64,000 nt of DNA from Vulcanimicrobiota bacterium (GCA_963823795.1 CAWGMX010000003.1:317180-381179); one strand, 5' to 3'; counted from the stretch's first letter, positions 21,321 through 38,259 are shown. Numbers and translations are program-made. The notes: generated from the sequence alone by a model not told the origin.

Positions 21321-21502
21321 ACGCCTTTAAAATAAGGACAATACTTTTTGGGATGGCCGGGAGTCGAACCCAAGTTCGGGGATTCCAGGCGATACCGTCC
21401 GTTACCGAAAAGTGTTTTCTGTCAGGCTTTTCCGCCGCACCGGTTCCCCGATCGCCCCGCCCAATCCCGACCGTTTCCGCCGCGTCGGTGACAAAATGTG
21501 AC
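21321..21502 (-). repeat. att-like repeat A (core plus ~135-bp arm)
   Basis: Core 21324-21371 is CCTTTAAAATAAGGACAATACTTTTTGGGATGGCCGGGAGTCGAACCC. Its reverse complement contains GGGTTCGACTCCCGGCCATCCCA. The arm ends in GTGACAAAATGTGAC (21488-21502). Homologous to repeats B and C. Confidence 0.7.
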
Positions 21503-21616
21503 GCGATGCTGCTGCTGTCGAGCGAGCAGGAGTCCGCTTCTGCCTCATGCCGTACGCTCGCCGTGATATTAACCCGCCGGCACCAACAGTTAGGCCACTT
21601 CGCGCGTCTATAGGTC

Positions 21617-22180
21617 GTGGCACTATCGATAGACGCGGCGCTCGTGGAGTCGGCCAGGGTCGAAACTGGCGCTCTGGAGCGGTTGATCGAGACGGTTTGG
21701 CCCGAAGCATACCGTGTCGCCCTGACCATCCTACGCGATCACGGTTTAGCCGAAGACGCAGCTCAGGATGCGTGCGCTACCATTGCGCGATCGCTCAACT
21801 CACTAAAGAACGACAATACGTTTGCGACGTGGACGTACCGGATCGCGGCGAACGCGGCCATTACGATCGGGCGCCATCAACTCCCGGTACAATCCCTCGA
21901 CCCTGTCGCCGCTCGCGGCTGGTCGGTCGATACAGCCGAAGCCGTCGATCTCGATAATGCGCTCGCCGCGCTTCCGATCGTGCAGCGCGCCGCGATCTTA
22001 CTCCACTATTACGCGGGATTGAAAAGCAGGGAAATCGCTGCCGCGACCGGTTTGCCGTCGTCCACGATTCGCTTCCACATCATGCTCGCGAGGCGCGCGC
22101 TGCGCAAAGCACTCGCCGTCGAGGAAGCTGCATCCACTGCATCCACCCTATCCGATGAGGTACTTACGAATGCCCGCTGA
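21617..22180 (+). CDS. ECF-type RNA polymerase sigma-70 factor
   Basis: 187 aa. Region 2 (DAAQDACATIARSL ... FATWTYRIAANAA) and region 4 (LLHYYAGLKSREIAAATGLPSSTIRFHIMLARRAL). Confidence 0.85.
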   Translation: MALSIDAALVESARVETGALERLIETVWPEAYRVALTILRDHGLAEDAAQDACATIARSLNSLKNDNTFATWTYRIAANAAITIGRHQLPVQSLDPVAARGWSVDTAEAVDLDNALAALPIVQRAAILLHYYAGLKSREIAAATGLPSSTIRFHIMLARRALRKALAVEEAASTASTLSDEVLTNAR

Positions 22181-22940
22181 ATCGCGAATCGCCAGGGTCC
22201 TAGAGTCTATGCTGTCGGCTATCGATTCGCCGCCTTCCCCGACGCGTGCAATCTTGGATCGTGCCGCAGCGGCGTTGCCAGCCGAGCCTCGTCGTATCCG
22301 CCCCTACGCACGCTTCGCGCTCGTCGCCGCTGCGACAATTGCACTGGTCTTTGCGATTTTCCCCAAAACGTCGGTCGCGCTGATCGAGCGCATCGTCGTC
22401 GACAGTTACGCGGCGGCATACCGCGTTATAGGTTGGACGCCACCTCCAAATCCGCCGAAGGCTCTCGACAAGGCGGCTGAATCAGAACAGGTTTCATTAG
22501 CCGCGGCACAGACGAGGGTGCCGTTTAGGATCGTACCGCCGGCCGGTTTACCCTCCGACGCCGTCCTCACCGGCATCCATACAATGCCGGTGCTCTCCTA
22601 CGACGAAGCGAAGCACGTATGGTCGAAGGACTCGCCCACGCTAGCGTTCGAGTACCGCCGCGCGGATGGCCGCGCGTTTCAACTCGTCGCCGAAAAAGAC
22701 GATCCCCGCACGGGAGCACCGCCACGCTCCATTTTTGAGGCGGAAGACTTACCGGGCGGCAAGGTCGCATTGACCAGACGCGCGCACTACGCTTGGACGA
22801 ACGGCGATCAGATGATCTCGGTTAACGCCAACGGTATCACGGTGGCGGAGATCAAGGCGATTTGCGCTGCGATGAACGGTCAACCGGTTCATCACAACGC
22901 ACGCGAGACAGTCACCAAGCGATATTCGCTACGATCCTAA
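22170..22940 (+). CDS. Single-pass membrane protein, putative anti-sigma partner
   Basis: ATG at 22170 overlaps the sigma gene stop. One TM helix (FALVAAATIALVFAIF) and an extracytoplasmic domain. The role is inferred from position only. Confidence 0.5.
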   Translation: MPAESRIARVLESMLSAIDSPPSPTRAILDRAAAALPAEPRRIRPYARFALVAAATIALVFAIFPKTSVALIERIVVDSYAAAYRVIGWTPPPNPPKALDKAAESEQVSLAAAQTRVPFRIVPPAGLPSDAVLTGIHTMPVLSYDEAKHVWSKDSPTLAFEYRRADGRAFQLVAEKDDPRTGAPPRSIFEAEDLPGGKVALTRRAHYAWTNGDQMISVNANGITVAEIKAICAAMNGQPVHHNARETVTKRYSLRS

Positions 22941-23358
22941 GAGATGAGCGACCGCCCCCGATTTCGGTGCGCGCCGTTTCATCGCGTCCTAGCTTGCCGT
23001 CGAAACCGGACTGATCCAGCCACTCCTCGGTGTTTCCCGTCCAAGGCTTCAAGTACGAAACGTGCCACAGCCCTTGGTCGTCGACCTGAGTTTGAACCCA
23101 ACGATTGTTTCTCGCGTCGTACACGAAGGACTTGCTGATCGAATATTGGTTGGTCTGACCTTGCACCTGGGCGGCATCCCATTCACGCATGCTTTCTGAG
23201 TCGATCACAAACGCCACCTTGATCTTGTATAGCGTTGGATCCTTGACTGGCCCCGCCGGGCACGCCCAGGTCCCGACGAAGTACTGCTCCGCGACCATTC
23301 CGTTCGGCCCCTTGGCCTCAGCCGTGCCCGCGTCTGAAAGCGGTGAGCGGCTCGCCAT
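22912..23358 (-). CDS. Hypothetical protein
   Basis: 148-aa ORF with protein-like composition. No recognisable motif, and it overlaps the convergent gene end by 29 nt. Confidence 0.35.
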   Translation of the reverse strand: MASRSPLSDAGTAEAKGPNGMVAEQYFVGTWACPAGPVKDPTLYKIKVAFVIDSESMREWDAAQVQGQTNQYSISKSFVYDARNNRWVQTQVDDQGLWHVSYLKPWTGNTEEWLDQSGFDGKLGRDETARTEIGGGRSSLRIVANIAW

Positions 23359-23454
23359 TTACAACGACCGGCGGGGCGGGTGGCGTCATCGCGCCGGTCC
23401 GAGGCTCGCCGATTGCGACGGGCCGAGCGCCCTTAGGTGTGGCCGTTAAGGCTC

Positions 23455-24615
23455 CTAGAGCGGCGGCGGTACGCACGCGCCGTTGACAACGCGACACGTG
23501 GCAATGGCCATCGGATATTGGCCCGTTCCGAATGGCGATCCGTGGACCGCCGTCAACGCGCCGGTGTTCAGTGTGATTTTATAACCCGAAACGCTCCATG
23601 AGGTCTCGTTGACCGCGTAGACCACCTTGCCCGCCGGGTCGATCGCGATGGCGTGAGGCCCGGTGCCGGCTGTAAACGGAGAACCCGGTATCGCCCTTAG
23701 CGGACCGGAGGTTGTAATGTCATAGCCCGAAACCTCGTTGGCGCTGAAGTTCCCTACGTACGCGAATGAGCCGTTGGGAGTGATGGCGACGCCGTACGGG
23801 CCGGTGGCCGTTGCAAATGGGGACTTTGAGAGCGCGGTCAGCGCGCCGGTGGCGGCATTGACGGAATAGCCGGATATATTGTTGGAGCTGAAGTTAGTAA
23901 CGAAGGTGAACTTGCCGTTGGGAGCGATTGCTAAACCATTAGGGCCGGTGCCTGCCGCAAACGGCGATCCCGTTACCTGCGACAGCGCGCCGCTCCCGTT
24001 GTAGGAATACCCCGAAACGTTGTTCGTGCTCGAGTTGGCAGCATAAACGAACTTCGCTTTGGGATCGACCGCGATGGCGTCAGGGTACGTGCCGGCGGAA
24101 AACGGCGATCCAGAAACCGCGGTCAGCGCGCCGGTCGAGCCGTTGATGGTGTAGGCGGAAATATTGTTGGAGTTGCCGTTGGTCACGTACGCAAACCGGC
24201 CGTGACTGTCGATCGCTACGGCGTTGGGTCCGGTTCCCGTAGAATACGGCGATCCACTTATTTGCGTGAGCGCGCCGGTGCTCGCGTTGATGCTATAGAC
24301 CGAGACTTCGTTTGAGCCATTGTCGGCCACGTAGGCGAAGCCGCCCAGAGGGTCGATCGCAATGCCTTCGGGACCGGTGCCGGCCGAAAACGGCGATCCC
24401 GTTATCTGCGAAAGCGAGCCGCTCGAGATCTGGTAGGCGGAAATGGTATTGGAAACGCTGTTGGGCACATACACAAACTCGACGCTGACATCGGGCCGAA
24501 CGTCAGGTGCCACCCGCGGTGGCGTTCCCGCGCCGCCTGAGGACGAGCACGCGGTAACGAGTACGGCGACCGCAAGCGCGGGAACGGTTCGGAAAGCGCG
24601 GCGAATGACTCGCAT
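23455..24615 (-). CDS. Lipoprotein, lactonase-type 7-bladed beta-propeller family
   Basis: 386 aa with lipobox VTACS. Seven or more repeats of ...G.GP.(A/G)IA(I/V)DP.G.F.YV.N..SN.(V/I)S.Y.I... Confidence 0.75.
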   Translation of the reverse strand: MRVIRRAFRTVPALAVAVLVTACSSSGGAGTPPRVAPDVRPDVSVEFVYVPNSVSNTISAYQISSGSLSQITGSPFSAGTGPEGIAIDPLGGFAYVADNGSNEVSVYSINASTGALTQISGSPYSTGTGPNAVAIDSHGRFAYVTNGNSNNISAYTINGSTGALTAVSGSPFSAGTYPDAIAVDPKAKFVYAANSSTNNVSGYSYNGSGALSQVTGSPFAAGTGPNGLAIAPNGKFTFVTNFSSNNISGYSVNAATGALTALSKSPFATATGPYGVAITPNGSFAYVGNFSANEVSGYDITTSGPLRAIPGSPFTAGTGPHAIAIDPAGKVVYAVNETSWSVSGYKITLNTGALTAVHGSPFGTGQYPMAIATCRVVNGACVPPPL

Positions 24616-25026
24616 CTCCAGCCTCCTTGAGGAGCAACTAAGCAGCCTACGAGGTTCGAGTCGGCTCGCCCTGCAGCCTGTAGGTGGCGTTCGTCACGCA
24701 TGCCGGGAGCGGGGGCGCCGAGGCGTAGTCCCGACATTGCGATCGCCGACTTTCTACCATGGAGAGGTTACGGTTCGGCACGCTGACCTCGCAGATCTCC
24801 AGCGACGAAAAGCAGCTCCGGAGCGCCACGCTCATGCCAAGGCAGCGCCAGCAGATCGACGCCGACCTGCTCAAGACTGAGAACGCCTTATCGTAGCTCA
24901 CGGGGTACTTGCCGAAGCGGAAGCTCAGGTAACGCAAGCCCAGGTCGAGAGCGCCGGCGCAATGGCGAAGTGCGCGCTCAAGGCCGACGAAAAACGAGGA
25001 CCTAAAACCGACCTAGAGTGGCGAAC

Positions 25027-25210
25027 AGCCTTGTAAAATAAGGACACTACTTTTGGGATGGCCGGGAGTCGAACCCAAGCTCGGGGATTCCAGCCGATCC
25101 CGTCCGTTACCGAAAAGTGTTAATTCTGTCAGGGTATTCCGCCGCACTGCTTCCCCGACCGTCCCTTCCGGTACCGACCGCTTCCGACCCGTCCGTGACA
25201 AAATGTGACA
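25027..25210 (-). repeat. att-like repeat B (core plus arm)
   Basis: Core 25029-25076. The arm is nearly identical to repeat C (AAGCTCGGGGATTCCAGCCGATCCCGTCCGTTACCGAA...CGTCCGTGACAAAATGTGACA). Confidence 0.7.
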
Positions 25211-25221
25211 GGCTTTTTCAC

Positions 25222-28040
25222 TCACCGCCCTTGCGATTCGCTTTCGTCAAGCGCGAGTGCGATCGCAGCCTCTGGTGTGAGTGCGGCGCCCTCTGCGCTC
25301 AGTCGTGCGAGTTCGTCGGGCGCGAGTTCCTCGCGCAGGAGCGCGTTCAGGCGGTCATGCGTCGTCGTCTCGGTGAACTCGCGCGGGTATCCGTGCCGCT
25401 GTAACGCGGCGTCGGCGTAGCCTTCGAGTGAGGCCGCGCGCGCAAGTTCGCCGCGCAGCGCGAAGACTAGCGCCAGATGTTCGATCGCAATCGCGACTTG
25501 GGCATGGTCCGGCTCGCGCGCGGCACGGATTCCGATCGCCTCGCGAGCCGCCGCCGCTGCGCCAGGAAAATCGTCGACAGCGACAAGATAGCCTGCGAGG
25601 TTGTGGAGCAGATTGCCGAGCAAGGTCTTATCTGCACCAGACCGTGCCGCCGGAAGCGTCTCGCGAACGATCGCAATCGCTCGTTGCGTCTGACCTCGCG
25701 CGTGTTCGATCTCCGCGAGGTTGAGTGCCGCAATCTGCTCGCCGCGGGCGTTTCCGAGCGAGCGGCCACTCTTTTCGGAACTGCTCGTACATGCGTGCCG
25801 CCGTCTCGGGATCGCCGCGAAGATTGGCTTAAAAGCGCACGCCTTCTCGAGCAACTGAATGCGAAGGTAAGCCGAAGTTCGCCGGGATCGCCTCGACTTC
25901 CGTTAACGCCCTCTCCGCATCGTCAAGCCGATTGAGGAATGTCGCTGGAGACGCATACCGGCACAGCGCCCTGGCCAGCAACGGCGTCGTCGCCGCTTGC
26001 CCGCGCATGCTCGACCGCCTGCCGTCGCCAGCTCGAATGCGCGCACCTTGTGACCAGGAGCGGCGAGCAAGTCCGACAACGCGGTTGACAGCCGAGCGCG
26101 CAGCCGCGACTGGCCCGCCGGAAGCGCCGCGAGGTACGCCTCGCACCGTGCCATGCCTTCCGCCTCGAGTCCGATGATCTTGCCAACTCGCGTCAATGTT
26201 GGCGAGCAACTCGCCGCCGTCGATGACTTCCGAACGCGACCAACGCACCGTCGAGCGCCGACACGCACGTCCTCCAGTTCGGTCTGCAGCGCCGCAGTCA
26301 AGATCGGCAATTCGCGCCGTCCGCTCGCGCCGTTCCCACAGCTCCGCAAAGCGGTCGCGCAGATAGCGCAGATGGCGGCCCGCAGCCGAGATCGCGCTCG
26401 CCCGCATCGTCGAGCTTCTCCAACGCATAGGCGCGCGTCGATTCGAGCAGCCGGTAGCGCACTGCGTCGCCTTGCGGTTCGGCGAGCACTAGCGACTTAT
26501 CGACCAGCGAGGCCAGCACGTCGAAGACGTCGAGTTCGTCGAGATCTATCAGCGCTCCCGACCGCGACGGCTCCCTCAAGCGCGAATCCGTTGACGAAGA
26601 TCCCCAGCCGCCGGAAGAGCACCCGCTCGCGCTCGTCGAGCAGGTCGTAACTCCAATCGATCAGCGCGCGCAGCGTCTGATGGCGCGGCAGCGCGTCGCG
26701 GCTCGCCGCCGGTGAGCACGCGGAAGCGCTCGTCGAGGCGTTCGCGCAGCTGTTTTGGGCTGAGCATCTTCACCCGCGCGGCCGCCAGTTCGATCGCCAG
26801 CGGAATGCCGTCGAGCCGCCGGCAGATGTCGGCGACGACCGGCGCATTCTCGTCGGTCAGGGAAAACGAATCGCTCGCGGCGCGCGCGCGTTCGACGAAG
26901 AGCGCGACGGACTCAAATCGCAGCAGGTCGATCGCGGTCAGGTGCGTTGCTTCATCTTTGCCCGGAAGACGAGGGACGGCACCCGGTACGTCGCTTCGCC
27001 GGCGATTCCCAGCCCTTGGCGGCTCGAGGCGAGCACCTTGACCTTCGGAGCAACCGTGCAGGATTGCCGAGATCACGCGCGCCGCGGGCTCGACCAGATG
27101 CTCGCAGTTGTCGAACACGAGCAAGATATGCTTTCCCTTGAGCGCGCGAACGAGGTTCTCTACCGGATCGCCCTCGGTCGCGAGCGTGAGCCCGAGCGCC
27201 TGCGCGACGGTCGATGGAATGTAGTCGCCGCTGGTCAGCGGCGCGAGTTCGATGAACCACACGCCGTCGCCGAAGCCGTCGAGCAGATTGGCCGCGACTT
27301 GCAAGGAGAGCGCGCGTCTTGCCGACGCCGCCCGAGCCGACCAGGGTGACAAGCGGTGCTCTTCTCGATGAGCGCAGCGATCTCGCGCCGACCTCCGCCT
27401 CGCGACCGACGAAGGAGGTGAGCTGGGCGCGGCAAGTTGTTCGGAAGGAGGTCGAGCGAACGCAGCGGCGGAAAGTCCGCGGCGAGATCGGGCGCGAGCA
27501 GTTGATAGACTGCTCGGGCCGCGCAAGATCTTTGAGCCGATGCGCGCCCAGATCGCGCAGGCTGCACTGCGGCGGCAGCGCCACCCTGGACCAGCTCGGT
27601 CAGTGACACCCGAGACGAGCACCTGGCCGCCGTGGCCGATCGCCAGCAGGCGCGCGACGCGATTGACCGTTGGTCCGAAGTAGTCGCCGTCGCGCTCGTC
27701 GGCACTTCCCGCGTGAACGCCATGCGAACACGCAATCCGTCGACCGCCGAGAAATCTGTCTGCCGCAAGTGCGCGCTGTGCGTCGAGAGTCGCGGCGACT
27801 GCATCGCCGGAGCCGTCGCGAAGGCCGCGCAGAACGCGTCGCCGATCGTCTTAAAGACGATCGCCGCGTGCTTCCGATCGCCGCGTGCATCAGCGCATCG
27901 TGGCGGCGTAGCGCCCGCTGCATCGCCTCGCGGTCGCGTTCCCAGCGTGCGGTGCTGCCTTCGATATCCGAAAACAGAAACGTGACCGTGCCGGTAGGGC
28001 GAGCCGAGGCCGGCGGCCCTGGTTTCACACGAGTCGCCAT
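25222..28040 (-). pseudogene. Class III adenylate/guanylate cyclase - P-loop STAND NTPase - TPR protein, heavily frameshifted
   Basis: Starts MATRVKPG...GTVTFLFSDIEGSTARWERDREAMQRALRRHDALMHAAI. Recognisable pieces continue in alternating frames: VFKTIGDAFCAAF, DFSAVDGLRVRMAF, ERDGDYFGPTVNRVARLLAIGHGGQVLVSGVT, LRDLGAHRLKDLARPEQ and LTSFVGREAEV. Further pieces are LVTLVGSGGVGKTR (Walker A), ILLVFDNCEHL (Walker B), LDGIPLAIELAAARV and a TPR-like C-terminus in ORF 25222-25854. Confidence 0.8.
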
Positions 28041-28080
28041 GGACCCGCGTTTCGTGCTAGAGGTGTTCCCCTCCGCCAAG

Positions 28081-28270
28081 CGGCGGAAACGCCTGTAAAA
28101 TAAGGCCGGTTTTCGTGGGATGGCCGGGAGTCGAACCCAAGCTCGGGGATTCCAGCCGATCCCGTCCGTTACCGAATGGTGTTATCCTGTCAGCTTTTTC
28201 GCCGCACTGGTTCCCCGATCGTCCCGCCCGGTCCCGACCGCTTCCGACCCGTCCGTGACAAAATGTGACA
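28081..28270 (-). repeat. att-like repeat C (core plus arm)
   Basis: Core 28092-28138. The arm ends in GTGACAAAATGTGACA at 28255-28270. Confidence 0.7.
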
Positions 28271-28301
28271 GAACCAGTACTTGAGCGACTGCCTGCCACA
28301 C

Positions 28302-28621
28302 CTCAGACCTCGATTCTCAAACGGCAAATCCGCAGGACCCAGAGGTCTTGAAATGCACACCGCTCATCTCGATAAGACTCGCCAAATAACTGTGAGGGTG
28401 GGTTGCTTTTGAAGGCTGCTGCGAACTCCTTGGCCGTTTGCTCCCCGAGGGCCGAGTGCGGCCACCGCTCCTATCTTGAACACAATAGATATCGATCGAC
28501 GCGATTCCCACGCGGTGGGCCTGCCCGCGGCGGCGTGTCCGAACTCGTGGCCTAGAACCTCTCGGAGCGGACAACGATCCAACGTTCGCGTGGAAGCGTC
28601 GGGCAGCCAAGGAAAACTCAT
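28302..28621 (-). pseudogene. ImmA/IrrE-family metallopeptidase remnant (frameshifted)
   Basis: One frame has REVLGHEFGHAAAG (HExxH). About 35 codons later another frame has GEQTAKEFAAAFKSNP, matching the E..A..FA..L.P signature that follows HExxH in this family. No intact ORF. Confidence 0.4.
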
Positions 28622-28679
28622 GCGATTTACTTAGCGCACTGGTAGGCTTAGCCCGGGGGGTCAACTCGAGCCAGGCCTG

Positions 28680-29276
28680 CTAAGGGTCCCGGAACTTTCG
28701 ATTGATTATGAGCGCCTGATCCGGTGAGACAGCCGCACCTACGGGCTCGTACATGAAGTAGCACGAAAAGGTTGACGTGGGCGAACCGCCCGCTGGATAA
28801 TTGTAAATTGACACATCGTGATTATAAGCGTCTGGAGCGACGAGCTCTCCCGCGCGGGCTTCGGACTTCTTTTGTACCAGCCAGAACTGAACGACATCGC
28901 GGGCCCGGTCAAGGCGCGTTGTGCCTTCGAGCACGGCATGCTTGTCCTTGATGGCGAACTGATAGACTTTGCTCACGTCCTGGTCGCCGACGGCAAGATA
29001 CCGACCGTGCCACTCAACGCCACCTGGAAAATAGATCGATTGCGTCAGTGTGATTTCCGAAAAGGTGCTGCTGCCTTTTGGCAATTCCGCAAGGCCAAAG
29101 CCCTTTCTTGTGAAGCCGTCGACGAAGAGGTTTCCCCGGTCATCGTAGCTGCAGAATAGCGCGCGTTTGAGAACGGCATCGGTGTATTGTATAGGCGTGC
29201 CCGATGCGTTGGCGTAGATCGCAACGCTCCCCGCGCCATAGCCAGTATTTCCCATATTCGTGACTGGAGCTAACAT
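28680..29276 (-). CDS. Hypothetical protein (beta-propeller-like, no signal peptide)
   Basis: 198-aa ORF with protein-like composition, 65 nt downstream of the GloVer gene on the same strand. Confidence 0.5.
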   Translation of the reverse strand: MLAPVTNMGNTGYGAGSVAIYANASGTPIQYTDAVLKRALFCSYDDRGNLFVDGFTRKGFGLAELPKGSSTFSEITLTQSIYFPGGVEWHGRYLAVGDQDVSKVYQFAIKDKHAVLEGTTRLDRARDVVQFWLVQKKSEARAGELVAPDAYNHDVSIYNYPAGGSPTSTFSCYFMYEPVGAAVSPDQALIINRKFRDP

Positions 29277-29343
29277 GACAAAACCCGCGTGCCAGCGCGC
29301 GCTCGAACAGGCGAGTCAACATTCCTTATTCTATGAGAGTGCG

Positions 29344-30714
29344 TTAGGGCTGCAAAGCAAAGATCGTTCCATAGGTACAATATCCGTCGGATCTTGGGCA
29401 GCTCGGGAGGTTAACGCCGCCCCCGTAGGTTGCGCCATAAAGCGTGCCGTTTACTTCAGTTAAGCCCGACAAGGGATCGATTCCATCATATTGATAACTT
29501 CCAAAACTGTGTAACACGCGTTCCCGGCCGGCTCCGCTTAAGCGGAAGACGGTTCCCTCGCCCTCCGCACCTCCAGTTGACGTCGTGCCGTACAGCACGC
29601 CGTTCACCATAGTCACGGGCGCAACGGGGGCGGATCCGTCAGAGCCATTGGTGCTAAAGCTGTGCAACACGCGCTGATCCTTGCCACTCAAGGTCATGCT
29701 GAAGACCGCTCCCGAGCCGGTAGCGCCCCCGCCTCCGGTCGTGCCGTAGAGCGTTCCGGTCGCAGCAATTAGGCCTGCGTCCGGGTACGCGCCATCTGGA
29801 CCCTTGAACCTGTGTAACACGTGCTCTCTGCCGGCAGTACTTATTTTGAAGACCGTTCCGAAGCCATGCCCGCCGACCTGAGTTGTGCCAAACAACGAGC
29901 CGTTCACATTGACTAGCATTGCCAGCGGATTAGCGCCGTCGGTGCCCGTGCCGAAACTATGCAGTACTCGCTCGATCGAACCAGTCTCGCTTATAGCAAA
30001 GACGGTTCCTTTGCTGTATGCGCCGCCCTCGTACGTCGTGCCGTAGAGCCTCGTTCTGAAAGCAATCAAACCCGCCCGCGGTTGTGCTCCGTCGGTAGCG
30101 TAACCGAAGCTATGCAACACTTTCTCTTTGCCTGCCCTAGTTATGCTAAAGACCGTTCCGCCGTTGTAGGTGCCGCCCTCGCTTGTCGTACCGTAGAGCG
30201 TCCCATTCACGGTTACCAGATCCGCGACGGGCTCCGCTCCATCAGGACTACCCGTGAAGCTATGTAGTACGACCTCCTTACCGGAAGCGGTGACCCTGAA
30301 AACCGTTCCATCGCCATGTGCATACCCCGCTGCCCCGCCGTATTCCGTCGTACCATAGAACACGCCCATTAAGGTGATAAGGTCCGCCGTGGGAGAGACT
30401 CCATCGTAGCCGTTTACATTGCTACCGAAGCTGAAGAGCACTTTATATTTAGAAGACGTTGAAGATGGGTCCAAGGAACGGGCCGCTGCGGGCAGCGGCC
30501 ACGATTCGCTCGAACGCGAACAGCCTGCAAACATCGTGGCGCTAAGCATCAACACCACAAAAGTGCAGAGAATGGGGCCAGTCACTAGGGGTTTTAACGT
30601 TTGATGGACATGGGTTCGATTTCTCAGCGCGGTCCGCACCGTAGTGGAACGGCGGCGTCGAACCCGCGCGCCCAAATAAGATCTAGATCCCGAAGCAGGC
30701 ATAGGTAATTCCAA
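29344..30714 (-). CDS. Lipoprotein with about 8 Gloeo_Verruco (GloVer)-type repeats
   Basis: 456 aa with lipobox MFAGC. Repeat unit of about 45 aa: VLHSF..G.DGA.P.A.L....G.LYGTT..GG....GTVF. Confidence 0.7.
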   Translation of the reverse strand: MELPMPASGSRSYLGARVRRRRSTTVRTALRNRTHVHQTLKPLVTGPILCTFVVLMLSATMFAGCSRSSESWPLPAAARSLDPSSTSSKYKVLFSFGSNVNGYDGVSPTADLITLMGVFYGTTEYGGAAGYAHGDGTVFRVTASGKEVVLHSFTGSPDGAEPVADLVTVNGTLYGTTSEGGTYNGGTVFSITRAGKEKVLHSFGYATDGAQPRAGLIAFRTRLYGTTYEGGAYSKGTVFAISETGSIERVLHSFGTGTDGANPLAMLVNVNGSLFGTTQVGGHGFGTVFKISTAGREHVLHRFKGPDGAYPDAGLIAATGTLYGTTGGGGATGSGAVFSMTLSGKDQRVLHSFSTNGSDGSAPVAPVTMVNGVLYGTTSTGGAEGEGTVFRLSGAGRERVLHSFGSYQYDGIDPLSGLTEVNGTLYGATYGGGVNLPSCPRSDGYCTYGTIFALQP

Positions 30715-31867
30715 GGGTAGTGTCGTTTGCGATGGGGCTTCCAGAACTGTTGTAGGCTTGAATGTTGAAGCCGCTAGGCGTCTGGCTATCGGCGGCGAGG
30801 TTAATAAGGTACGACGACGTCGAACTCAGGATGCAGGTGTATTTGTCATTTGCAAATTCAGCGTTGGCGCCGGTAAAGCTGATGCTGGCATTGTTTAAGG
30901 CGCACCAACTGCCGTTCGCGCAACCTCCGTTGGGGGTGATATTGAGAGCACTGGCATTCTTGACGATATGAAAGGTATCGGTGCACGAGCTGCCATCAGG
31001 TCCGTAGCACGGCCCAGCCGGGCCTGGCGTCGCATTGAACGAAACCGCGGACATCAGCGGCCCGCCAATGTGCAGCGGCGCGTTACACGTGAGGGTGCTC
31101 GCCGTCGTTTCACCATAGTCGCACTTCGCGTAATTTGACACGCTTCCCAGGAGGACATCACCCTCACCTGCGCCCGTGTAGGATACGAGGGACCCGTGAG
31201 AATACGATGGTAATGGGTTCGGGCTGCCGTCGCCGGCGCCGGCGATAATTGTTGAGCCCGCAAACAGATTTGTTATGACCCCGAAATTGCCGTTTCCATC
31301 AACGGCGACGAAAAACCCGTCATTGGTGACGGGCAACGGGCTCACCATGACCGTCACGCCGAAAGCCTGATTTGAGATTCCTCCCGGACAATATCCGGGA
31401 CAATCATCCGCCGCCCCATGATGCGTGTAGGATGTACCCGTTGAGCCGGGGTGGGGCGTATTAACATCATTCCCGTACGCAAGATAATGATGCGACTGCG
31501 CTCCAGGAGATCCGAAGCAGACAAAATAACAAAGCCCGGTATCAAGAATACCGGTGCCGGACGGTTGATACTCAAAAGCATTGATTCCGGTGTTATAAAT
31601 GTTGCCTGCTCCCCAAGCTCCTCCAATACCAACGTAAGGCGACGGGGTCACCATCGGCAAAACCGACGTGGCCCACGGGAGATAGCTGGGTGGGTCTTCT
31701 GGGAAAGCGTCTGACAGTGCCACACGACTAACAACCGAGGATTGCCCGGAACCGTGGGCGCTTGCGCCGAGATAAAGCGACACCACGGCGATCAGCACGC
31801 CGAGCATGATCACCAGACGTTGCACCCTGTGCGTGGAAGGCCTGTTCTTACGCTCCAAAACAGGCAT
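30683..31867 (-). CDS. Membrane-anchored/secreted Gly-Ser-Asn-Cys-rich protein, paralogue 1
   Basis: Start set at the ATG at 31867 (MPVLERKNRPSTHRVQRLVIMLGVLIAVVSLYLGASAHG). About 140 C-terminal residues are shared with the next gene (CNAPL..GP..S.......GP.GPCY...GS.C..TFH.VKN.S.L.IT..G.C....WC.LNNASIS.TGANA.FAND.Y.C.LSS.S.YLI.L.A..QT..GF.IQAYN.SGS.IA....LG..YACFG). Confidence 0.6.
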   Translation of the reverse strand: MPVLERKNRPSTHRVQRLVIMLGVLIAVVSLYLGASAHGSGQSSVVSRVALSDAFPEDPPSYLPWATSVLPMVTPSPYVGIGGAWGAGNIYNTGINAFEYQPSGTGILDTGLCYFVCFGSPGAQSHHYLAYGNDVNTPHPGSTGTSYTHHGAADDCPGYCPGGISNQAFGVTVMVSPLPVTNDGFFVAVDGNGNFGVITNLFAGSTIIAGAGDGSPNPLPSYSHGSLVSYTGAGEGDVLLGSVSNYAKCDYGETTASTLTCNAPLHIGGPLMSAVSFNATPGPAGPCYGPDGSSCTDTFHIVKNASALNITPNGGCANGSWCALNNASISFTGANAEFANDKYTCILSSTSSYLINLAADSQTPSGFNIQAYNSSGSPIANDTTLGITYACFGI

Positions 31868-33003
31868 AGGCGACGCCGAGGTCCGTGCCGCTCGCGATGG
31901 AACTTCCCGAATTGTTGTAGGCTTGTATTTCGAAGCCTGTTGTCGTCTGATTATTTGCGAGTAGGCTAATGAGATAAGTGGATAGCGAGCTGAGCGAACA
32001 GGAATACTGGTCGTTTGCAAACTGAGCGTTAGCGCCGGTAATACTAATGCTGGCGTTGTTCAACGTACACCAAGTATCGTTAGGGCATGCGCCGCTTGTC
32101 GTTATGTCGAGGCCGCTGCTGTTCTTTACGACGTGGAATGTGTTCGCGCACGGGCTACCGCTATAAGCGTAGCACGGACCGACCGGTCCGAGCGCTGCTG
32201 TCGTGGAAACCCCAGACTTCACGGGTCCATTGACGTTGAGCGGTGCGTTGCAGCTAAGCTTACTCGGCGCCGACTCGCCGTAGTCGCACTTCACGTAGTT
32301 ACCTGAGCTCCCGAGCAGAATATCGCCAGTATCCGGCTTCTCACTAGTGCCGGTGTACGATACTAGTGATCCTGGAGACGGCGGGGGCACCGGGTTAGGC
32401 GAGGTACCTGCTCCCGCGACAACTGCTGCCCCTGCATAGATGTTGTTAAAAACCGCGAAATTCGCGCTGGCATCAATCGCTACCAACACCGTAGGTGTGG
32501 CCGTGGGAGAAGCGTATCCCTCTATACTAAAAACCTGATCGCTGATTCCACCAGGGCAAAGGCGCGGACCGCTGGTCGAGCAGTCATCCGGCGCTCCAAT
32601 GGTCGTAAAAGAATAGGAGTTGGGAGATGAAACGTCATTTCCAACCGCAATTACATTAGACGACGCTACTCCTGGCACCCCATAGCAAAGGAACGCGCAA
32701 ATTCGTACCGAGCACGCCAGTGCCTGGGCTACCGAAGCCATTTGTGGCCGTGTTATAGATATTGCCCGCACCTAGAGCGCCTCCGATCCCAACATAGGCT
32801 GACGTAATCGGACTTGGCCACGGCGAGGCCATGTTGTACCACGTGACGTAGTTCGGGGTAGGGGCCTGCGCAACGAGAGTCGTAGCCGGTCGCGTTGGTC
32901 CTGCGCTTGCACCCACGCAAAGCGCGATGGTTGTCGCGAGCACTGCGAGCATGATGGCCAGGCGTTGAATCACCGATACGCTCCGCAAAGCAAAAAAAGA
33001 CAT
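31848..33003 (-). pseudogene. Paralogue 2 of the Gly-Ser-Asn-Cys-rich secreted protein, one frameshift
   Basis: The N-terminal part (ATG at 33003, MSFFALRSVSVIQRLAIMLAVLATTIALCVGASAG...NGFGSPGTGVLGT) is in the frame of ORF 32656-33207. It continues as ICAFLCYGVPGVASSNVIAVGNDV... in the frame of ORF 31848-32771. The junction is near 32695-32712. Confidence 0.55.
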
Positions 33004-33327
33004 CGAAATCTTCGGCGCCCCCTGCCGGCCCTCCCCCGAGCAAACGGTTCGAGCAGTTATCGAAGGAGAGTTAGGGGCTGAACAGCACCGGCGTTTGGCA
33101 GCGGTCTCCGCAGCGCGAGAGACCACGAGCGTCGCGGCCGATGCCGGCGCCTGTAGCCGTCTTTCAGAGAGTGTGACGAACCCCCTTACGTGTTTTTTGG
33201 GGCGCACTGCTGTGACTGGGAGGGGCGCCGTTTCGAGCCCCGTCCTCTATGCCCCGTTAGCCTCCCCCTTCAGGCAGCCCTTTGCATTCTTGCTCAGCAA
33301 AGCCATCGACGTTGATAGCAAACGGGG

Positions 33328-33684
33328 TTATAACCCCAGGTCTCGGTTGTTGCCAGTGACAGCGAGCTGGGCCGAAGACGTTCCGAGAAGCCACTGCTTG
33401 CGTAGATTGGCCGGAACGACGATGAGGATACGGCGTTTGCCCTCTGCCCAGCGCTGAGAGATTACTAGCCCAGCCTCAATCGTCTTGCCTAGACCCACCT
33501 CGTCGGCAAGCAAAGCCCCCTTTGACAGCGGGGACGCGAAAGCGAAAAGAGCGGCGTCGACCTGGTGAGGATTTACGTCGACCTGTGCGCCGGCAACCGC
33601 GATGGCGAGGCGCTCCGTGCTATCGGAGGAGCGCCGTCGAATGAGATCGTGCGCAATGTATTTCGCTTGGTAATCGGTGATCAT
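33328..33684 (-). pseudogene. N-terminal fragment (~100 aa) of an SNF2-family helicase
   Basis: [14 protein letters not shown]...[12 protein letters not shown]...[20 protein letters not shown]...[13 protein letters not shown] covers helicase motifs I/Ia. The reading frame then degenerates and stops. SNF2 helicases are about 900 aa or longer. Confidence 0.6.
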
Positions 33685-33835
33685 TCTACGATTTCTGCTA
33701 ACGTATTAGTTGCGCTCATATTGTCAGGGTTGTAGTCCCAAGCCCTTTCTGACACCTCCGGTTCGGATTTCAGCACGGTCTGGCTCGGGGCAGCGACGCG
33801 CCAATTAGAGGATCGATGCTCCGCTTGCCACCTGA

Positions 33836-34849
33836 TCATTCGCGCCTCATATTCACTGCTCGCTCGAACGCACGAAGCGCACCGATTACTGAATCAAATG
33901 GCGGCGGATCGGTCAAAAACATCTGGCGCATGTTCCGATAATCTGCCGCGAGTTCGCGGAGGATCTCCGGATCCGGAACAACGACGAGTGAGCCCGGCTT
34001 CGCAAGGTCGTAGCGAGCCCAAGCGGCGTGATAGTATGAATCCTTGAAGACCCGGACGTCTTCCAACATGGCAAGATCGCGAGATGCTTCCTGCCCGATC
34101 CTTGTCCCCAACATCGCCGCTACGTCGGAATAGTGGCGCGAAAAAAACTGTTTGGGTTTGCCGCGGAAGCTCTCGGCGTGCAGGGCCGTTACCTTCTCCC
34201 AAAACGTCCGGTCGGGGACAAGAACGTTGCAGATTACCTGGGGCTCCTGCAGCAGCATCGGTATCTCGGCCAAATATGGAGCAATCGATCTGTGCTCGGC
34301 CGGAGCGGTCCTCGCGCGCCAGCCGAGTTCAATTTTCACGACGCTGCGGATATATGAATGTTCTCGATCGGGATCGCTCTTCGGGTAACTGAATAGCAAT
34401 GTATTGCGATCACTTTCATCTTGGCTAATACTCCACCCGGCGGCGGTGCCGAGTCGTTCCGCAAACTGGGCGCGCAACGCCGAGAGGAGAGCGCTACCGA
34501 TGTACGTCGCGCAGGCATCATCGAGTCGCGACATACGCTCGTCGCGCCACGTCTTGCTGATCCCGGGCTCCTCGGGGTCGGAGAGCCCTTGGGCGATGAA
34601 GAAGCTCGGATCGGTGACAACGTCAATATCTTCGGAGAATCTCGCGATCAAGCCGTAAGCCTTTGATAGCGAGGTACCACCCTTGAACGTTAGCGCCGCG
34701 TGTCCAGCCGGCAAATCAAAAAGCGCTTTCAGCGTCCAACAGACCCAGAAGTCCTTTTCGACGGTCGTGAAATCGACGTCCATTTGGATCGCCCGCTCCT
34801 GGATGATCTCACGGCGTTCCATGGCGGCTAGCCGCGCGAAGCTATCCAT
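33836..34849 (-). CDS. abiEii: AbiEii/AbiGii-family nucleotidyltransferase toxin (type IV TA)
   Basis: 337 aa with FKGGTSLSKAYGLIARFSEDIDV. Overlaps the upstream antitoxin gene by 8 nt. Confidence 0.85.
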   Translation of the reverse strand: MDSFARLAAMERREIIQERAIQMDVDFTTVEKDFWVCWTLKALFDLPAGHAALTFKGGTSLSKAYGLIARFSEDIDVVTDPSFFIAQGLSDPEEPGISKTWRDERMSRLDDACATYIGSALLSALRAQFAERLGTAAGWSISQDESDRNTLLFSYPKSDPDREHSYIRSVVKIELGWRARTAPAEHRSIAPYLAEIPMLLQEPQVICNVLVPDRTFWEKVTALHAESFRGKPKQFFSRHYSDVAAMLGTRIGQEASRDLAMLEDVRVFKDSYYHAAWARYDLAKPGSLVVVPDPEILRELAADYRNMRQMFLTDPPPFDSVIGALRAFERAVNMRRE

Positions 34850-35474
34850 GCGTCTCGCCCTCGTCCGCTAGAATCTTATCGATCAACCTCAGCATCCACG
34901 ACGGTGCTCGTCCCGCACGTTGCCTCAACCGCTTCGCGAGATCGTGCTCGCGAACGAAGGTGCGAAGCTTCGCAACTTCAACCTCGGTGGCGTTTGGTTT
35001 TCCGATCGCCTGCAGCGCGTCGATGACGAGCTCCGCCGGATCGGCATCGCGCGCAAGCGAGCGCGGGCCGGCGGTTCGTAGTCGGATGCGCTGGCCACCG
35101 ATGTTCAGCTCGCGCGGGAATAAGTTGGTACGATAGACGGGCCGCGCGACGACCTGGGTGGTGAGCCCGAGCCGGTTCGCGGCGTCGAGCTCGGGGCGCT
35201 CAATCTTCGCGCCGGTCTTCCGTTCATGGGCTGCGATGATCGCCTCAGGCGTTGGGCTCAGGGCGCCGATTCGCGGGTTAGTCTTCGGAACGTCGTAGTA
35301 GCCCTTGGACAGCCGACGGATCGTTCCGGCCTTTGCCAGACGACGCAGCGCCTGCCTGACGGCATCTTCGGAACCAAGCCGGTCGCGAACCAGTTCGGCC
35401 GGGGTGAAGACCGTGCCGGCGTCCAGCTTGCGAACGTACCGGCGGATCGCCCCAGCCACGGTCAGAACAGCCAT
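34842..35474 (-). CDS. abiEi: AbiEi-family antitoxin/transcriptional regulator (wHTH)
   Basis: 210 aa. N-terminal wHTH-like FTPAELVRDRLGSEDAVRQALRRLAKAGTIRRLSKGYYDVP. Paired with AbiEii. Confidence 0.8.
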   Translation of the reverse strand: MAVLTVAGAIRRYVRKLDAGTVFTPAELVRDRLGSEDAVRQALRRLAKAGTIRRLSKGYYDVPKTNPRIGALSPTPEAIIAAHERKTGAKIERPELDAANRLGLTTQVVARPVYRTNLFPRELNIGGQRIRLRTAGPRSLARDADPAELVIDALQAIGKPNATEVEVAKLRTFVREHDLAKRLRQRAGRAPSWMLRLIDKILADEGETHG

Positions 35475-35478
35475 AATA

Positions 35479-35508
35479 TGTCACATTTTACTATAGAAAA
35501 ATGTGACA
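35479..35508. promoter_or_regulatory. Near-perfect palindrome just upstream of abiEi (putative operator/promoter)
   Basis: TGTCACATTTTA-CTATAG-AAAAATGTGACA starts 5 nt upstream of the abiEi ATG (35472-35474). On the minus strand it contains TATAGT and TAAAAT -10-like hexamers. Confidence 0.5.
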
Positions 35509-36313
35509 GTCAACACCCTCGGGTCCGGCCTCAGGTCCCGGTACAGCCGCCCGGCTTCCCCAAACTGTCCATGGCATTGCTAAGGGCGTCCCAATGGCCA
35601 AATTTCTTTTGCCTGGGGCGCCACGAAAGGCCTTGCCTGCGATCGCTAGCGGGCTCACTCGCTGGGCGCTCTGTAACACGTGCCGACGCGGGCTGAGCGG
35701 ACCGTGAGGGCCGCGACCCCGCCCGGTCTGGTCGGGAGGACGGCGCCCGCAGGGCGTTGTCCGTACAACCACCGGCTTGCGTCATGAAAAGCCGTCGATG
35801 CCCGTCACGACAAAAGCCTACGCGAAGATGCCAGTTCGCTCAGCCAGGTGATGCGATCGAGCTGCGTTAGAGCAACGAAACGCAAAGCGATCGCACTGCA
35901 AGCGCAACGCCGGCTGCCACGGTTCTGATAACCGCGGAGCAACGCCACAGCAATGCTACGCGAATCGAGTGCAATGCCGGAGCATCAAGGGTGTCATGGA
36001 CGCGACGTCACGAGGTTCCACTGCACTGGGGCGACTCGCGCCCGAAAGAGGCTTGGCAGAGCGGACCAAGGGAAGGGCACGGAGCCGGGTTCATTGCCGA
36101 ACGCGACCGGGTCCAGGGTCTGCCCGTAAGGGCCGAGCGAAGCGAGCCCTGGACGCGGACGCTAAAATCTAAGTCGAGCCGGCTCCCTGCGGCACGACGC
36201 GTTGCGCGGTATAATGGGGGTGACGAATCGCATTTGACTTTCGCACGCATTATAATGCGGGTAAATCGCTCCGGAGCTTGCGCTCTGGGGCATTTTTGTT
36301 TTGGAGAGCCACG

Positions 36314-36673: not shown

Positions 36674-36674
36674 C

Positions 36675-37850
36675 ATGGGGTCAGTCAAGCGACTACGAGA
36701 TAAAGTCTATCGTATCGTCTACGATGTTCCGAGCACGGATGGAAAACGCAAACAAAAACGTAAGACACTCTATAACGTCACCAAATCAGAAGCCGAAGCG
36801 ACTCTTGCCAAGCGAAAGGAAAAGGCGAAGCATTCCGGCGCCGTTCGGATTCCCAACCTCACCGTCGCCGAGCTATTTGGCGAGTTCTTTCAAATCAAAC
36901 GGAGGACGCTCTCCACATCGGCGCTCGAACGCTACGAGGGAATGTTCCGCAACTACATCGGACCCGCGATCGGTAACGTCAGAGTGAGCGACCTACGACC
37001 GCAGCAACTGACCGACGCTTACGCAGAGTGGGCCGCCAAAGGGGTCAGCGGGAAGCCGCTGTCTGGCCGTACCGTCCACCACGCTCACGATCTCATCCGG
37101 TGCGCCCTGAACTTCGGCACGCGGCGGGAGTGGGTCACACGGAACGTTGCTACGTGTTTGGAATCCGAGGACTTACCGAAGGTGACGAAGCCGGAGCCGA
37201 TAGCCTTGGATGAGGCGGAGATGGCCACACTTCTCAGTGCGGCGCGCAATCCATCAGAGCGCGCCAAGCGATCCGGTGCCCCGAGCGCCGAGCCGTGGTT
37301 TTATTCCGCCGTCGCGTTCGCGCTATACACCGGAGCGAGGCGAGGAGAAGTCCTCGGACTCCGCTGGTCCGACGTAGACTTCGAATCCGACACCGTCACC
37401 ATCATGCGATCACTCACGCGAACCCATAGTCGGGGCCTGTTCTTCAAGGAGCCCAAAAGCGGTAAGGCGCGGACGATTACCATGCCCTGTACGCTCACCG
37501 CAATCTTGAAGCGACACCGAGAGGCGCAAGACGACGAGCGAAACATCGTTGGAGCCGGATACAAGGACGACGATCTCGTCTTTGCCCGGCCCGATGGTTT
37601 ACTCGTGAACCCTCGGAACTTCGGGAACAGGGTAATCGAGTTGGCGGCTCGGGCGAAGGTCACGCCGATCACGGCTCACTGCTTACGCGACACGCACGCA
37701 TCGCTTCTTGCGAAAAGAGGCGTGCCGCTGGAAGTGGTGAGCAAACGCCTCGGCCATGGCGATATCCGCGTGACGGCCGAACGCTACTTACATGTCTACA
37801 GGGAAAGCGATGCGGCAGCAGCGAGGGTGCTCGACAGCCTCCCCGCGTAG
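36675..37850 (+). CDS. int: Tyrosine-type site-specific integrase
   Basis: 391 aa. Catalytic region ALYTGARRGEVLGLRWSDVD ... HCLRDTHASLLAKRGVPLEVVSKRLGHGDIRVTAERYLHV (R..H-x-x-R..Y). Confidence 0.9.
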   Translation: MGSVKRLRDKVYRIVYDVPSTDGKRKQKRKTLYNVTKSEAEATLAKRKEKAKHSGAVRIPNLTVAELFGEFFQIKRRTLSTSALERYEGMFRNYIGPAIGNVRVSDLRPQQLTDAYAEWAAKGVSGKPLSGRTVHHAHDLIRCALNFGTRREWVTRNVATCLESEDLPKVTKPEPIALDEAEMATLLSAARNPSERAKRSGAPSAEPWFYSAVAFALYTGARRGEVLGLRWSDVDFESDTVTIMRSLTRTHSRGLFFKEPKSGKARTITMPCTLTAILKRHREAQDDERNIVGAGYKDDDLVFARPDGLLVNPRNFGNRVIELAARAKVTPITAHCLRDTHASLLAKRGVPLEVVSKRLGHGDIRVTAERYLHVYRESDAAAARVLDSLPA

Positions 37851-37868
37851 GCGGCGCCTCGCACCTCT

Positions 37869-37888
37869 GTGACAAATCCGTGACAAAT
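37869..37888. promoter_or_regulatory. Two direct GTGACAAAT repeats (putative arm-type recombinase sites)
   Basis: GTGACAAAT at 37869-37877 and 37880-37888, with 11-bp phasing, lies between the int stop and core D. Repeats A-C carry the related GTGACAAAATGTGAC. Confidence 0.35.
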
Positions 37889-37922
37889 CGGGGGTAGAAA
37901 CGAAGCTGGTGCGGCGGGAACA

Positions 37923-37970
37923 CCTGTAAAATAAGGACAATACTTTTTGGGATGGCCGGGAGTCGAACCC
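37923..37970 (-). repeat. att-like core D (adjacent to integrase)
   Basis: CCTGTAAAATAAGGACAATACTTTTTGGGATGGCCGGGAGTCGAACCC. Sequence beyond 37970 diverges completely from repeats A-C. Confidence 0.7.
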
Positions 37971-38259
37971 GGACGCCCTTTCGGGCTGCAGATTTTCGCA
38001 CCACTATGGCTTTAGCCACCGCGCAGATCGCGTTTGTGGTCCGGACTGTGCCTTGACCCTATGAGATCGATTCTCACGTAGGTCGCGCCCGTCCAGTCTC
38101 TACACCTTCTTCGCCGAAGCGAAGCTTGGCTCGGCGTCGTCACGTCACCGCGACAGAGAGTTCGCCGACTTTGAGCGCATCCCGTAGCGGGTTTCCCGCG
38201 ACTACGGCTCAACGGTTTGTGTCAAGTCTGCTGTGTCTGCCTGTTCCACCACCATCCCA
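37948..38259 (-). ncRNA. Candidate ~310-nt structured RNA with a tRNA-like 3' end (tmRNA-like?, unassigned)
   Basis: The 3' end is CCGGG-TTCGACT-CCCGG (T-arm) plus CCATCCC-A. An exact complement, GGGATGG, lies at 38253-38259. Hairpins: GCCC-GAAA-GGGC (37975-37986), CTTCGC-TTCG-GCGAAG (38109-38124) and an imperfect ~9-bp stem with an AAA loop (38184-38205). No credible ORF. It lacks the tmRNA GGATTCGAC motif and an ...AA-ending tag frame. Confidence 0.3.

What the first reader, a model, noticed from the sequence alone, without database searches (positions are those of the whole stretch)
25222..28040. A 2.8-kb cyclase-STAND-TPR gene with a dozen or more frameshifts, exactly bracketed by att-like repeats B and C
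By hand translation the gene still encodes highly protein-like segments. These include a class III cyclase core, Walker A GSGGVGKTR, Walker B LLVFDNCEH, the LDGIPLAIELAAARV helical domain and a TPR C-terminus. But the reading frame switches at least 12 times, often every 20-40 codons.

The flanking genes (386-aa, 456-aa and 198-aa ORFs) are intact, so this is not a uniform error rate. Many indels with little apparent substitution decay is unusual for an old pseudogene.

Possible explanations are recent inactivation with indel-biased mutation, a local assembly or consensus problem between two repeats, or collapse of divergent copies. STAND NTPases with enzymatic N-terminal effectors are also used in conflict and defence systems. 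Selective loss of this one inside a mobile-element scar is therefore noteworthy.
Basis: seen in the sequence. Interest (0 to 1): 0.6.

Follow-up and report, generated by a model that had tools for sequence, protein, structure and literature searches.

The report
Assembly indel errors, not a dead gene
The "shattered" cyclase-STAND-TPR gene is most likely an intact gene lying in one of many patches of single-base insertion errors in this draft genome, because the same error pattern also breaks essential genes such as murC, murG and purA.

Summary
A Guanylate_cyc + NB-ARC/AAA + TPR gene lies on the minus strand (stop 25222, ATG about 28038). It fills the space between two copies of a ~190-bp att-like repeat. 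Against 8 intact homologues it carries 24-28 frameshifting indels, all within 25767-27871.

The reading as a selectively decayed pseudogene is not supported:
- With the indels ignored, the frame reads through 926-935 codons without a stop.
- Its dN/dS (0.24-0.32) is within or below the range of intact family pairs (mostly 0.25-0.37).
- Its own branch is short and has the lowest codon-position 1+2 to position 3 ratio of all tips.
- The indels are about 7:1 insertions, mostly +1, G/C-rich, and about 75% lie outside homopolymers.

The same signature, at 0.7-1.8 indels per 100 nt, appears in three conserved syntenic regions of this assembly. These hold ddl-murB-murC-murG, purA/hpt and a transporter region. 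Five congeners carry 0-4 such indels there.

About 6% of 2-kb bins in this genome show clustered frame switches, against 1% in a finished congener. The fraction rises with GC, and the gene is a 65-68% GC island.

Verdict: a consensus/polishing artefact in a long-read-type MAG (Eremiobacterota-like), about 90%.

The parts
25222..28038 (-). Class III cyclase + NB-ARC/AAA STAND NTPase + TPR gene, about 930 codons, broken in the assembly by 24-28 one- or two-base indels
   Evidence: The 8 aligned homologues are intact, and 12 are in all: 5 paralogues in the same genome (899-1008 codons open) and 7 genes in relatives (919-974 codons).
25767..27871 (.). Error patch holding all the frameshifting indels (1.14 per 100 nt; 21 insertions and 3 deletions by the strict count). 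Local GC is 65-68%; the flanks are 55-60%.
25017..25211 (+). att-like direct repeat B: the last ~24 nt of tRNA-Leu, about 35 nt of its downstream flank, and a ~130-nt shared arm ending in GTGACAAAATGTGAC
28079..28271 (+). att-like direct repeat C, 86-92% identical to B
21321..21502 (+). att-like direct repeat A, the outermost copy
37911..37970 (+). Partial repeat D: the att core at the true 3' end of the tRNA-Leu gene, with GTGACAAAT motifs just to its left
37947..38259 (-). tRNA-Leu(UAA) gene interrupted by a 227-nt intron at CUU/...g/AAAA; this is the integration target
   Evidence: aragorn -i. Conserved in relatives. The position matches the classical Leu.3Ug type.
36675..37850 (+). Tyrosine integrase of the innermost island (28272-37910)
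   Evidence: Phage_integrase, 6e-24; Phage_int_SAM_3.
33836..35474 (-). AbiEii toxin and AbiEi-like/DUF6088 antitoxin pair inside the innermost island

Best explanation
The gene is most likely intact in the organism. It is a member of a large cyclase-NB-ARC-TPR family and is carried as the only cargo of a 3.06-kb att-bounded module at a tRNA-Leu(UAA) integration hot spot. The 24-28 frameshifts are consensus errors of the assembly.

The draft has 16 contigs, 3.31 Mb and 87.6% completeness. It contains many 1-11 kb patches where about 1-2% of positions carry spurious single-base indels, mostly insertions. The patches are commonest in GC-rich stretches, and the gene is a GC-rich stretch. What is shown is the error signature and its presence in essential genes elsewhere in the assembly.

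The cause is inferred, not shown. Possible causes are unpolished or thinly covered long-read consensus, gap-filling with raw long reads in a hybrid assembly, or a consensus over mixed strains.
For: 1. No substitution-level decay.
- With the indels ignored, 926-935 codons read with 0 stops, at 80% amino-acid identity to the best homologue.
- Pfam scores equal or exceed those of intact homologues.
- dN/dS to 12 homologues is 0.24-0.32; pairs of intact genes mostly give 0.25-0.37.
- The gene's terminal branch is short (0.071). Its position 1+2 to position 3 rate ratio is the lowest of 13 tips: 0.198 against 0.23-0.64.
- At a typical ~10 substitutions per indel, about 6 stop codons would be expected, giving P(0 stops) about 0.002.

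2. The indel spectrum is not biological.
- There are 21 insertions to 3 deletions (binomial P = 3e-4).
- 15 of the 19 one-base insertions match neither neighbouring base, so they are not slippage in homopolymers.

3. The same spectrum occurs elsewhere in this assembly, in conserved syntenic DNA.
- C11:96.3-100.9k holds ddl, murB, murC and murG: 71 insertions and 11 deletions.
- C9:112-116.5k: 41 insertions and 13 deletions.
- C9:276.5-279.7k holds hpt, GH125 and purA: 17 insertions and 5 deletions.
- Five congeners have 0-4 unique non-3n indels each in the two regions where relatives were scored (C11 and C9:112-116.5k). A cell cannot live with these genes shattered.

4. Genome-wide scan of same-strand frame switches.
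- 6.1% of 2-kb bins have 5 or more switches, against 1.1% in 380 kb of a finished congener.
- The fraction rises from 2% to 31% with GC in this genome only.

5. All five full-length paralogues checked in the same genome are intact.

6. Residual indel frameshifts are a known property of long-read and hybrid MAGs (abstracts of 10.1101/2021.08.23.457338, PMC9262707 and PMC8812927).
Against: No same-strain intact copy was found.

Contig C3 as a whole has a near-baseline frame-switch rate (0.67 per kb), so the patch is locally conspicuous. Its position in an accessory, integrase-less module is where a true pseudogene would not surprise.

The sequencing platform and assembler are unknown to me.
Confidence: 0.9

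Rival explanations
1. The gene is a real, very recent pseudogene. After purifying selection was lost, or during one burst of frameshift mutagenesis, it collected about 25 small indels before any noticeable substitutions accumulated.
For: It sits in an integrase-less, att-bounded remnant module where cargo decay is common. The flanking ORFs are open.
Against: There are no stop codons, and the gene's own branch has the lowest position 1+2 to position 3 ratio in the family. The 7:1 insertion bias outside homopolymers runs against the deletional bias and run-dependence of bacterial indels (my own knowledge of Mira, Ochman and Moran 2001 and of mutation-accumulation studies). The identical signature in murC, murG, murB, ddl and purA of the same assembly cannot be real decay.
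Confidence: 0.06
2. The patch is a consensus built from two or more co-assembled strain variants or divergent copies. This is a special case of artefact in which mis-aligned SNPs become spurious insertions, and the cause is not simply low coverage or missing polishing.
For: The module is strain-variable by nature, as one unit of a tandem att array. The insertions lie outside homopolymers and are G/C-rich.
Against: The same patches affect single-copy core genes such as the dcw cluster and purA, where copy collapse is unlikely. The paralogues are only 75-80% identical, too far apart to collapse. The sequence alone cannot separate this from plain low-coverage consensus error.
Confidence: 0.03
3. 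The extra bases are real DNA, and the cell removes or bypasses them at the RNA or translation level. This would mean widespread insertional recoding or editing affecting many genes.
For: Only that the insertions are numerous, patterned (G/C-rich, +1) and present in essential genes that must be expressed.
Against: No such system is known in bacteria. The patches cross gene borders and intergenic DNA. Congeners at 75-83% identity have none of the insertions at the same sites. The density tracks GC content as a technical artefact would.
Confidence: 0.01

Closest known systems
Residual indel or frameshift errors in long-read and hybrid metagenome-assembled genomes (see proovframe, bioRxiv 10.1101/2021.08.23.457338; Sereika et al. 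2022, PMC9262707; Polypolish, PMC8812927)
   Same: Genes are split into many short frame-shifted pieces by 1-nt indels while the encoded protein stays fully homologous. Errors persist where polishing fails. Essential genes are affected as well.
   Different: The errors here are mainly insertions outside homopolymers. The homopolymer-length deletions typical of Nanopore are not the main type. The errors are strongly patchy and linked to GC. The platform and pipeline are unknown to me.
Class III adenylate/guanylate cyclase fused to a STAND (NB-ARC/AAA) NTPase and TPR sensor; sources annotate it as 'predicted ATPase/class 3 adenylate cyclase' (related to the mycobacterial cyclase-ATPase multidomain proteins such as Rv0386, from my own knowledge)
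   Same: The domain order is Guanylate_cyc, then P-loop NB-ARC/AAA_16, then helical/TPR. The cyclase motifs are kept: FSDIEGST, KTIGDAF and GPTVNRVARL. Walker A (GSGGVGKT) and Walker B (LLVFDNCEH) are also kept.
   Different: No LuxR-type HTH C-terminus was detected; the tail is TPR. The family is greatly expanded in this lineage, with at least 5 other full-length copies plus partial matches in this genome and more than 7800 database relatives at E <= 1e-50. Its function is untested.
CIME-like (cis-mobilisable) modules and tandem genomic islands accreted at a tRNA 3' end
   Same: Three att-like direct repeats and the tRNA-proximal core delimit three adjacent segments. Only the tRNA-proximal segment has an integrase. 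Relatives show the same multi-att arrays at this tRNA.
   Different: Mobility was not tested. The B-C module carries a single gene. The repeats are 86-92% identical, not exact.

Membership tests
Genuine decaying bacterial pseudogene | Relaxed selection on its own lineage (raised dN/dS, nonsense substitutions) | tested here: not met
   0 stops in 926-935 codons. Pairwise dN/dS is 0.24-0.32, within or below the range of intact pairs. The tip's position 1+2 to position 3 ratio, 0.198, is the lowest of 13 tips.
Genuine decaying bacterial pseudogene | Indel spectrum typical of bacterial mutation (deletion bias, homopolymer context) | tested here: not met
   21 insertions to 3 deletions. 15 of the 19 one-base insertions match neither neighbour.
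Genuine decaying bacterial pseudogene | The lesions are specific to the gene and are not shared by essential genes of the same assembly | tested here: not met
   The same signature occurs in ddl-murB-murC-murG, purA and hpt. Relatives are clean at those sites.
Assembly or consensus error patch | The same error type recurs across the assembly, above the rate seen in a finished relative | tested here: met
   6.1% against 1.1% of 2-kb bins with 5 or more same-strand frame switches. About 70 clusters were found. Three were checked by alignment.
Assembly or consensus error patch | Accurate reads contradict the assembled bases | not testable with these tools
Class III nucleotidyl cyclase-STAND-TPR protein | Guanylate_cyc domain above the Pfam cut-off, with the metal-binding and transition-state motifs | tested here: met
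   PF00211 scores 46 bits against a cut-off of 21.9. The D-I-E-G-S-T, G-D and N-R motifs are present in the read-through.
Class III nucleotidyl cyclase-STAND-TPR protein | P-loop STAND NTPase module and a repeat sensor domain | tested here: met
   NB-ARC scores 24.1 bits against a cut-off of 23.5. AAA_16 and AAA_22 hits fall below their cut-offs. TPR_12 scores 39.2 bits against a cut-off of 30.1.
Anti-phage defence STAND (Avs-like) | Match to a known defence-system model, or a defence-island context | not tested
   PADLOC was not run. An AbiE pair lies about 6 kb away in the neighbouring island, but this is weak context. The family's dozens of copies per genus point to signalling as much as to defence.

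The most novel reading that the evidence does not exclude
The insertions are real DNA. This organism would then carry hundreds of +1 insertions in coding regions, including mur genes and purA, and would correct or bypass them after transcription. Bacteria would in that case have insertional recoding or editing. A weaker form is that only this gene suffered a burst of insertion-type frameshift mutagenesis linked to its att-bounded module.
Probability: 0.02. Interest if true: 0.95.

Novelty: not a real feature. Interest (0 to 1): 0.12.

Why it matters
As biology it matters little. The gene is probably an ordinary, intact member of a very large cyclase-STAND-TPR family that rides on a tRNA-Leu island.

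As quality control it matters more. This assembly has patches of about 1-2% insertion-biased indel error that are commonest in GC-rich stretches. Any 'pseudogene', 'frameshift', 'split gene' or 'phase variation' call from this genome needs read support. The low completeness estimate (87.6%) may also be partly an artefact of broken marker genes.

Tried and rejected

2. I looked for a same-strain intact copy and found none. A protein search with the read-through sequence gave a best hit of 80% identity. An exact 38-mer from the error-free 3' end was absent from metagenome contigs.

3. tblastn of homologues against the locus was not informative for counting frameshifts, because it reads through out-of-frame stretches at about 50% identity. 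I used nucleotide multiple alignment for the count.

4. My first automatic 'repair' mishandled a variable 46-nt region and produced two false stops. I replaced it with a projection on the nearest homologue, which gave 0 stops.

I replaced it with branch lengths partitioned by codon position on a fixed tree.

6. The Viterbi frame scan labelled most of the target patch 'non-coding' because its segments are too short. The genome-wide patch count is therefore a lower bound.

7. Rfam did not recognise the tRNA-Leu intron, either here or in relatives.

8. I first read the tRNA by eye as tRNA-Ser(UGA). ARAGORN with the intron option showed it to be tRNA-Leu(UAA).

9. I rejected collapse with paralogues as the cause. 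The paralogues are only 75-80% identical and are themselves intact.

Full report
**What is there.** The window is G000:C3:317180-381179, from a 3.31-Mb, 16-contig draft with 87.6% estimated completeness. Between 25222 and about 28038 on the minus strand there is no long ORF. Protein-like pieces are spread over all three minus frames. They include GTVTFLFSDIEGST, KTIGDAFCAAF, GSGGVGKTR, LLVFDNCEH, LDGIPLAIELAAARV and a TPR-like tail. When the frame is read through, Pfam finds Guanylate_cyc (46 bits), AAA_16/NB-ARC/AAA_22 and TPR_12. The gene fills the space between two copies of a ~190-bp direct repeat: B at 25017-25211 and C at 28079-28271. The copies are 86-92% identical and 3061 nt apart.

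**Counting the lesions.** The locus belongs to a very large family.
- Five other full-length paralogues in this genome match it at 68-80% nucleotide identity. All have single open frames of 899-1008 codons.
- The best matches in seven congeners (75-83% identity) are intact, at 919-974 codons.
- Against 8 of these homologues, the locus has 21 insertions and 3 deletions of non-3n length that none of them share. By majority rule the count is 24-26 insertions and 4 deletions.
- Nearly all are 1 nt long. All lie between 25767 and 27871, at 1.14 per 100 nt.
- The last ~545 nt of the gene carry none (P about 0.002 at that rate). The damage is a 2.1-kb patch inside the gene. It is not a property of the gene or of the inter-repeat segment as a unit.

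**No decay at the substitution level.**
- Projected on the nearest homologue, the sequence reads through 926-935 codons with no stop, at 80% amino-acid identity.
- Its Pfam scores are as good as or better than those of intact relatives.
- Pairwise Nei-Gojobori dN/dS to 12 homologues is 0.24-0.32. Pairs of intact genes mostly give 0.25-0.37.
- On a maximum-likelihood tree its terminal branch is short (0.071). Its ratio of codon-position 1+2 to position 3 length is 0.198, the lowest of 13 tips; the others give 0.23-0.64.
- 2.6% of possible substitutions in this gene would create a stop. At about 10 substitutions per indel, which is typical of bacterial spontaneous mutation (my own knowledge), about 6 stops would be expected. 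That gives P(0 stops) about 0.002.

**The indel spectrum is not biological.** The insertion-to-deletion ratio is 21:3 (P = 3e-4). Of the 19 one-base insertions, 15 differ from both neighbouring bases, and most are G or C. Real bacterial small indels are concentrated in homopolymer runs, and pseudogenes show a deletional bias (my own knowledge of Mira, Ochman and Moran 2001 and of mutation-accumulation work).

**The same signature elsewhere in the assembly.**

*The scan.* I trained a codon-usage Viterbi model with six frames plus a non-coding state and ran it over the whole genome, counting same-strand frame switches.
- This genome has 5 or more switches in 6.1% of its 2-kb bins. In 380 kb of a finished, single-contig congener (G022) the figure is 1.1%.
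- In this genome only, the fraction rises with GC, from 2% below 61% GC to 31% above 67% GC.
- The target has 65-68% GC between flanks of 55-60%.
- About 70 clusters were found. This is a lower bound, because the target itself was mostly called non-coding.

*Three clusters checked by alignment with the syntenic DNA of congeners.* The first used four congeners, the other two used five.

| Region | Genes | Insertions | Deletions |
|---|---|---|---|
| C9:276.5-279.7 kb | hpt, a GH125 gene, purA | 17 | 5 |
| C9:112-116.5 kb | SBP_bac_5, an AsnC-like domain gene and an OEP gene | 41 | 13 |
| C11:96.3-100.9 kb | ddl, murB, murC, murG | 71 | 11 |

In the second and third regions the relatives carry 0-4 unique non-3n indels each; relatives were not scored in the first. 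Pooled over the target and these three regions, 101 of 134 one-base insertions lie outside any run, and 103 of 134 are G or C. A cell cannot live with purA and four dcw genes each broken many times, so these indels are errors of the consensus. The target shows the same type, density and bias.

**Conclusion on the finding.** The most likely explanation, at about 0.9, is a patch of unpolished or poorly supported consensus in a long-read-type or hybrid MAG. Frameshifts of this kind are well documented in such assemblies (10.1101/2021.08.23.457338, PMC9262707, PMC8812927). I found no same-strain copy elsewhere. The exact technical cause therefore remains inferred; it could be low depth, a failure of short-read polishing at high GC, raw-read gap filling, or mixed-strain consensus. 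A real recent pseudogene remains possible at about 0.06. That reading would need an indel-only, insertion-biased process that happens to copy the assembly's error spectrum.

**Context: what the gene and its setting are.** The source names of the best database hits are Candidatus Tumulicola, Cybelea and Tyrphobacter. These place the genome among the Eremiobacterota-type lineages. The family is annotated 'predicted ATPase/class 3 adenylate cyclase' and has more than 7800 relatives at E <= 1e-50.

The repeats are att-like. Each holds the last ~24 nt of a tRNA gene, about 35 nt of its downstream flank, and a ~130-nt arm ending in GTGACAAAATGTGAC. A fourth, partial copy at 37911-37970 is the true 3' end of a tRNA-Leu(UAA) gene at 37947-38259 on the minus strand. 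Next to it lies a tyrosine integrase (36675-37850), and further in lies an AbiEii/AbiEi pair.

The region is therefore a tandem array: one integrase-bearing island (28272-37910) and two integrase-less, att-bounded modules (C-B and B-A). The C-B module carries only the cyclase-STAND gene. Relatives show the same multi-att arrays at this tRNA. In two of them (G012, G002) a cyclase-STAND homologue lies within 1-2 kb of the tRNA. This fits the gene being normal island cargo.

**Side observation.** The tRNA-Leu(UAA) gene is split by a 227-nt intron at CUU/...g/AAAA. This is the classical cyanobacterial and plastid group I position, the 'Leu.3Ug' type of Williams 2020. Default ARAGORN and Rfam miss it. 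That paper notes that the Rfam model has no bacterial seed sequences. From memory, the intron core (…GCCGAGCCAAGCUUCG…GAAGGUGUAGAGACUGGACGG…) resembles the Azoarcus IC3 ribozyme; I did not test this. Intron-bearing copies occur in 20 of 40 relatives searched, and others have an intron-less gene.

**Scores.** The finding is real as a sequence observation but is most probably not a biological feature. Interest is low, apart from its use as a warning about this assembly.

Noticed in passing
window 37947-38259 (minus): A tRNA-Leu(UAA) gene is interrupted by a 227-nt intron at the classical CUU/...g/AAAA position, ending in G. Default ARAGORN and Rfam miss it; aragorn -i finds it. Full-length intron-bearing matches occur in 20 of 40 relatives, and some congeners (for example G006, G023, G003) have an intron-less gene. 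From memory, the core resembles the Azoarcus IC3 group I ribozyme.
   Followed up: partly
window 21321-38259: A tandem island array sits at the tRNA-Leu 3' end. It has att-like copies A, B, C and D, an integrase (36675-37850) and an AbiEii/AbiEi pair (33836-35474) in the tRNA-proximal island, and two integrase-less modules (CIME-like). Relatives carry 2-4 copies of the 3' tRNA fragment near the same tRNA.
   Followed up: partly
G000 C11:96331-100925; C9:276592-279699; C9:112068-116463 (outside the window): These are patches of insertion-biased 1-nt indels, at 0.7-1.8 per 100 nt. They shatter ddl, murB, murC, murG, purA, hpt and transporter genes in this assembly, while five congeners are clean there. 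About 70 such clusters occur genome-wide, and they are commoner at high GC.
   Followed up: yes
G012:C46:20245-23442 and G002:C3:128138-131089 (relatives): Cyclase-STAND homologues lie 1-2 kb from the same intron-bearing tRNA-Leu gene. This suggests that the family is recurrent cargo at this integration site.
   Followed up: no
window 23455-24615 (minus): The intact 386-aa ORF is a lactonase/SGL-type beta-propeller. Its blades show up as five ~144-nt DNA repeats (60-78% identity). It is preceded by an ECF-type sigma factor gene (21617-22180) in the A-B module.
   Followed up: no
L006 (G014:C6) 4788-5000: A sequence 70% identical to the att-like repeat lies about 500 nt upstream of the intact cyclase-STAND homologue of G014. 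This suggests that the repeat and gene travel together.
   Followed up: no
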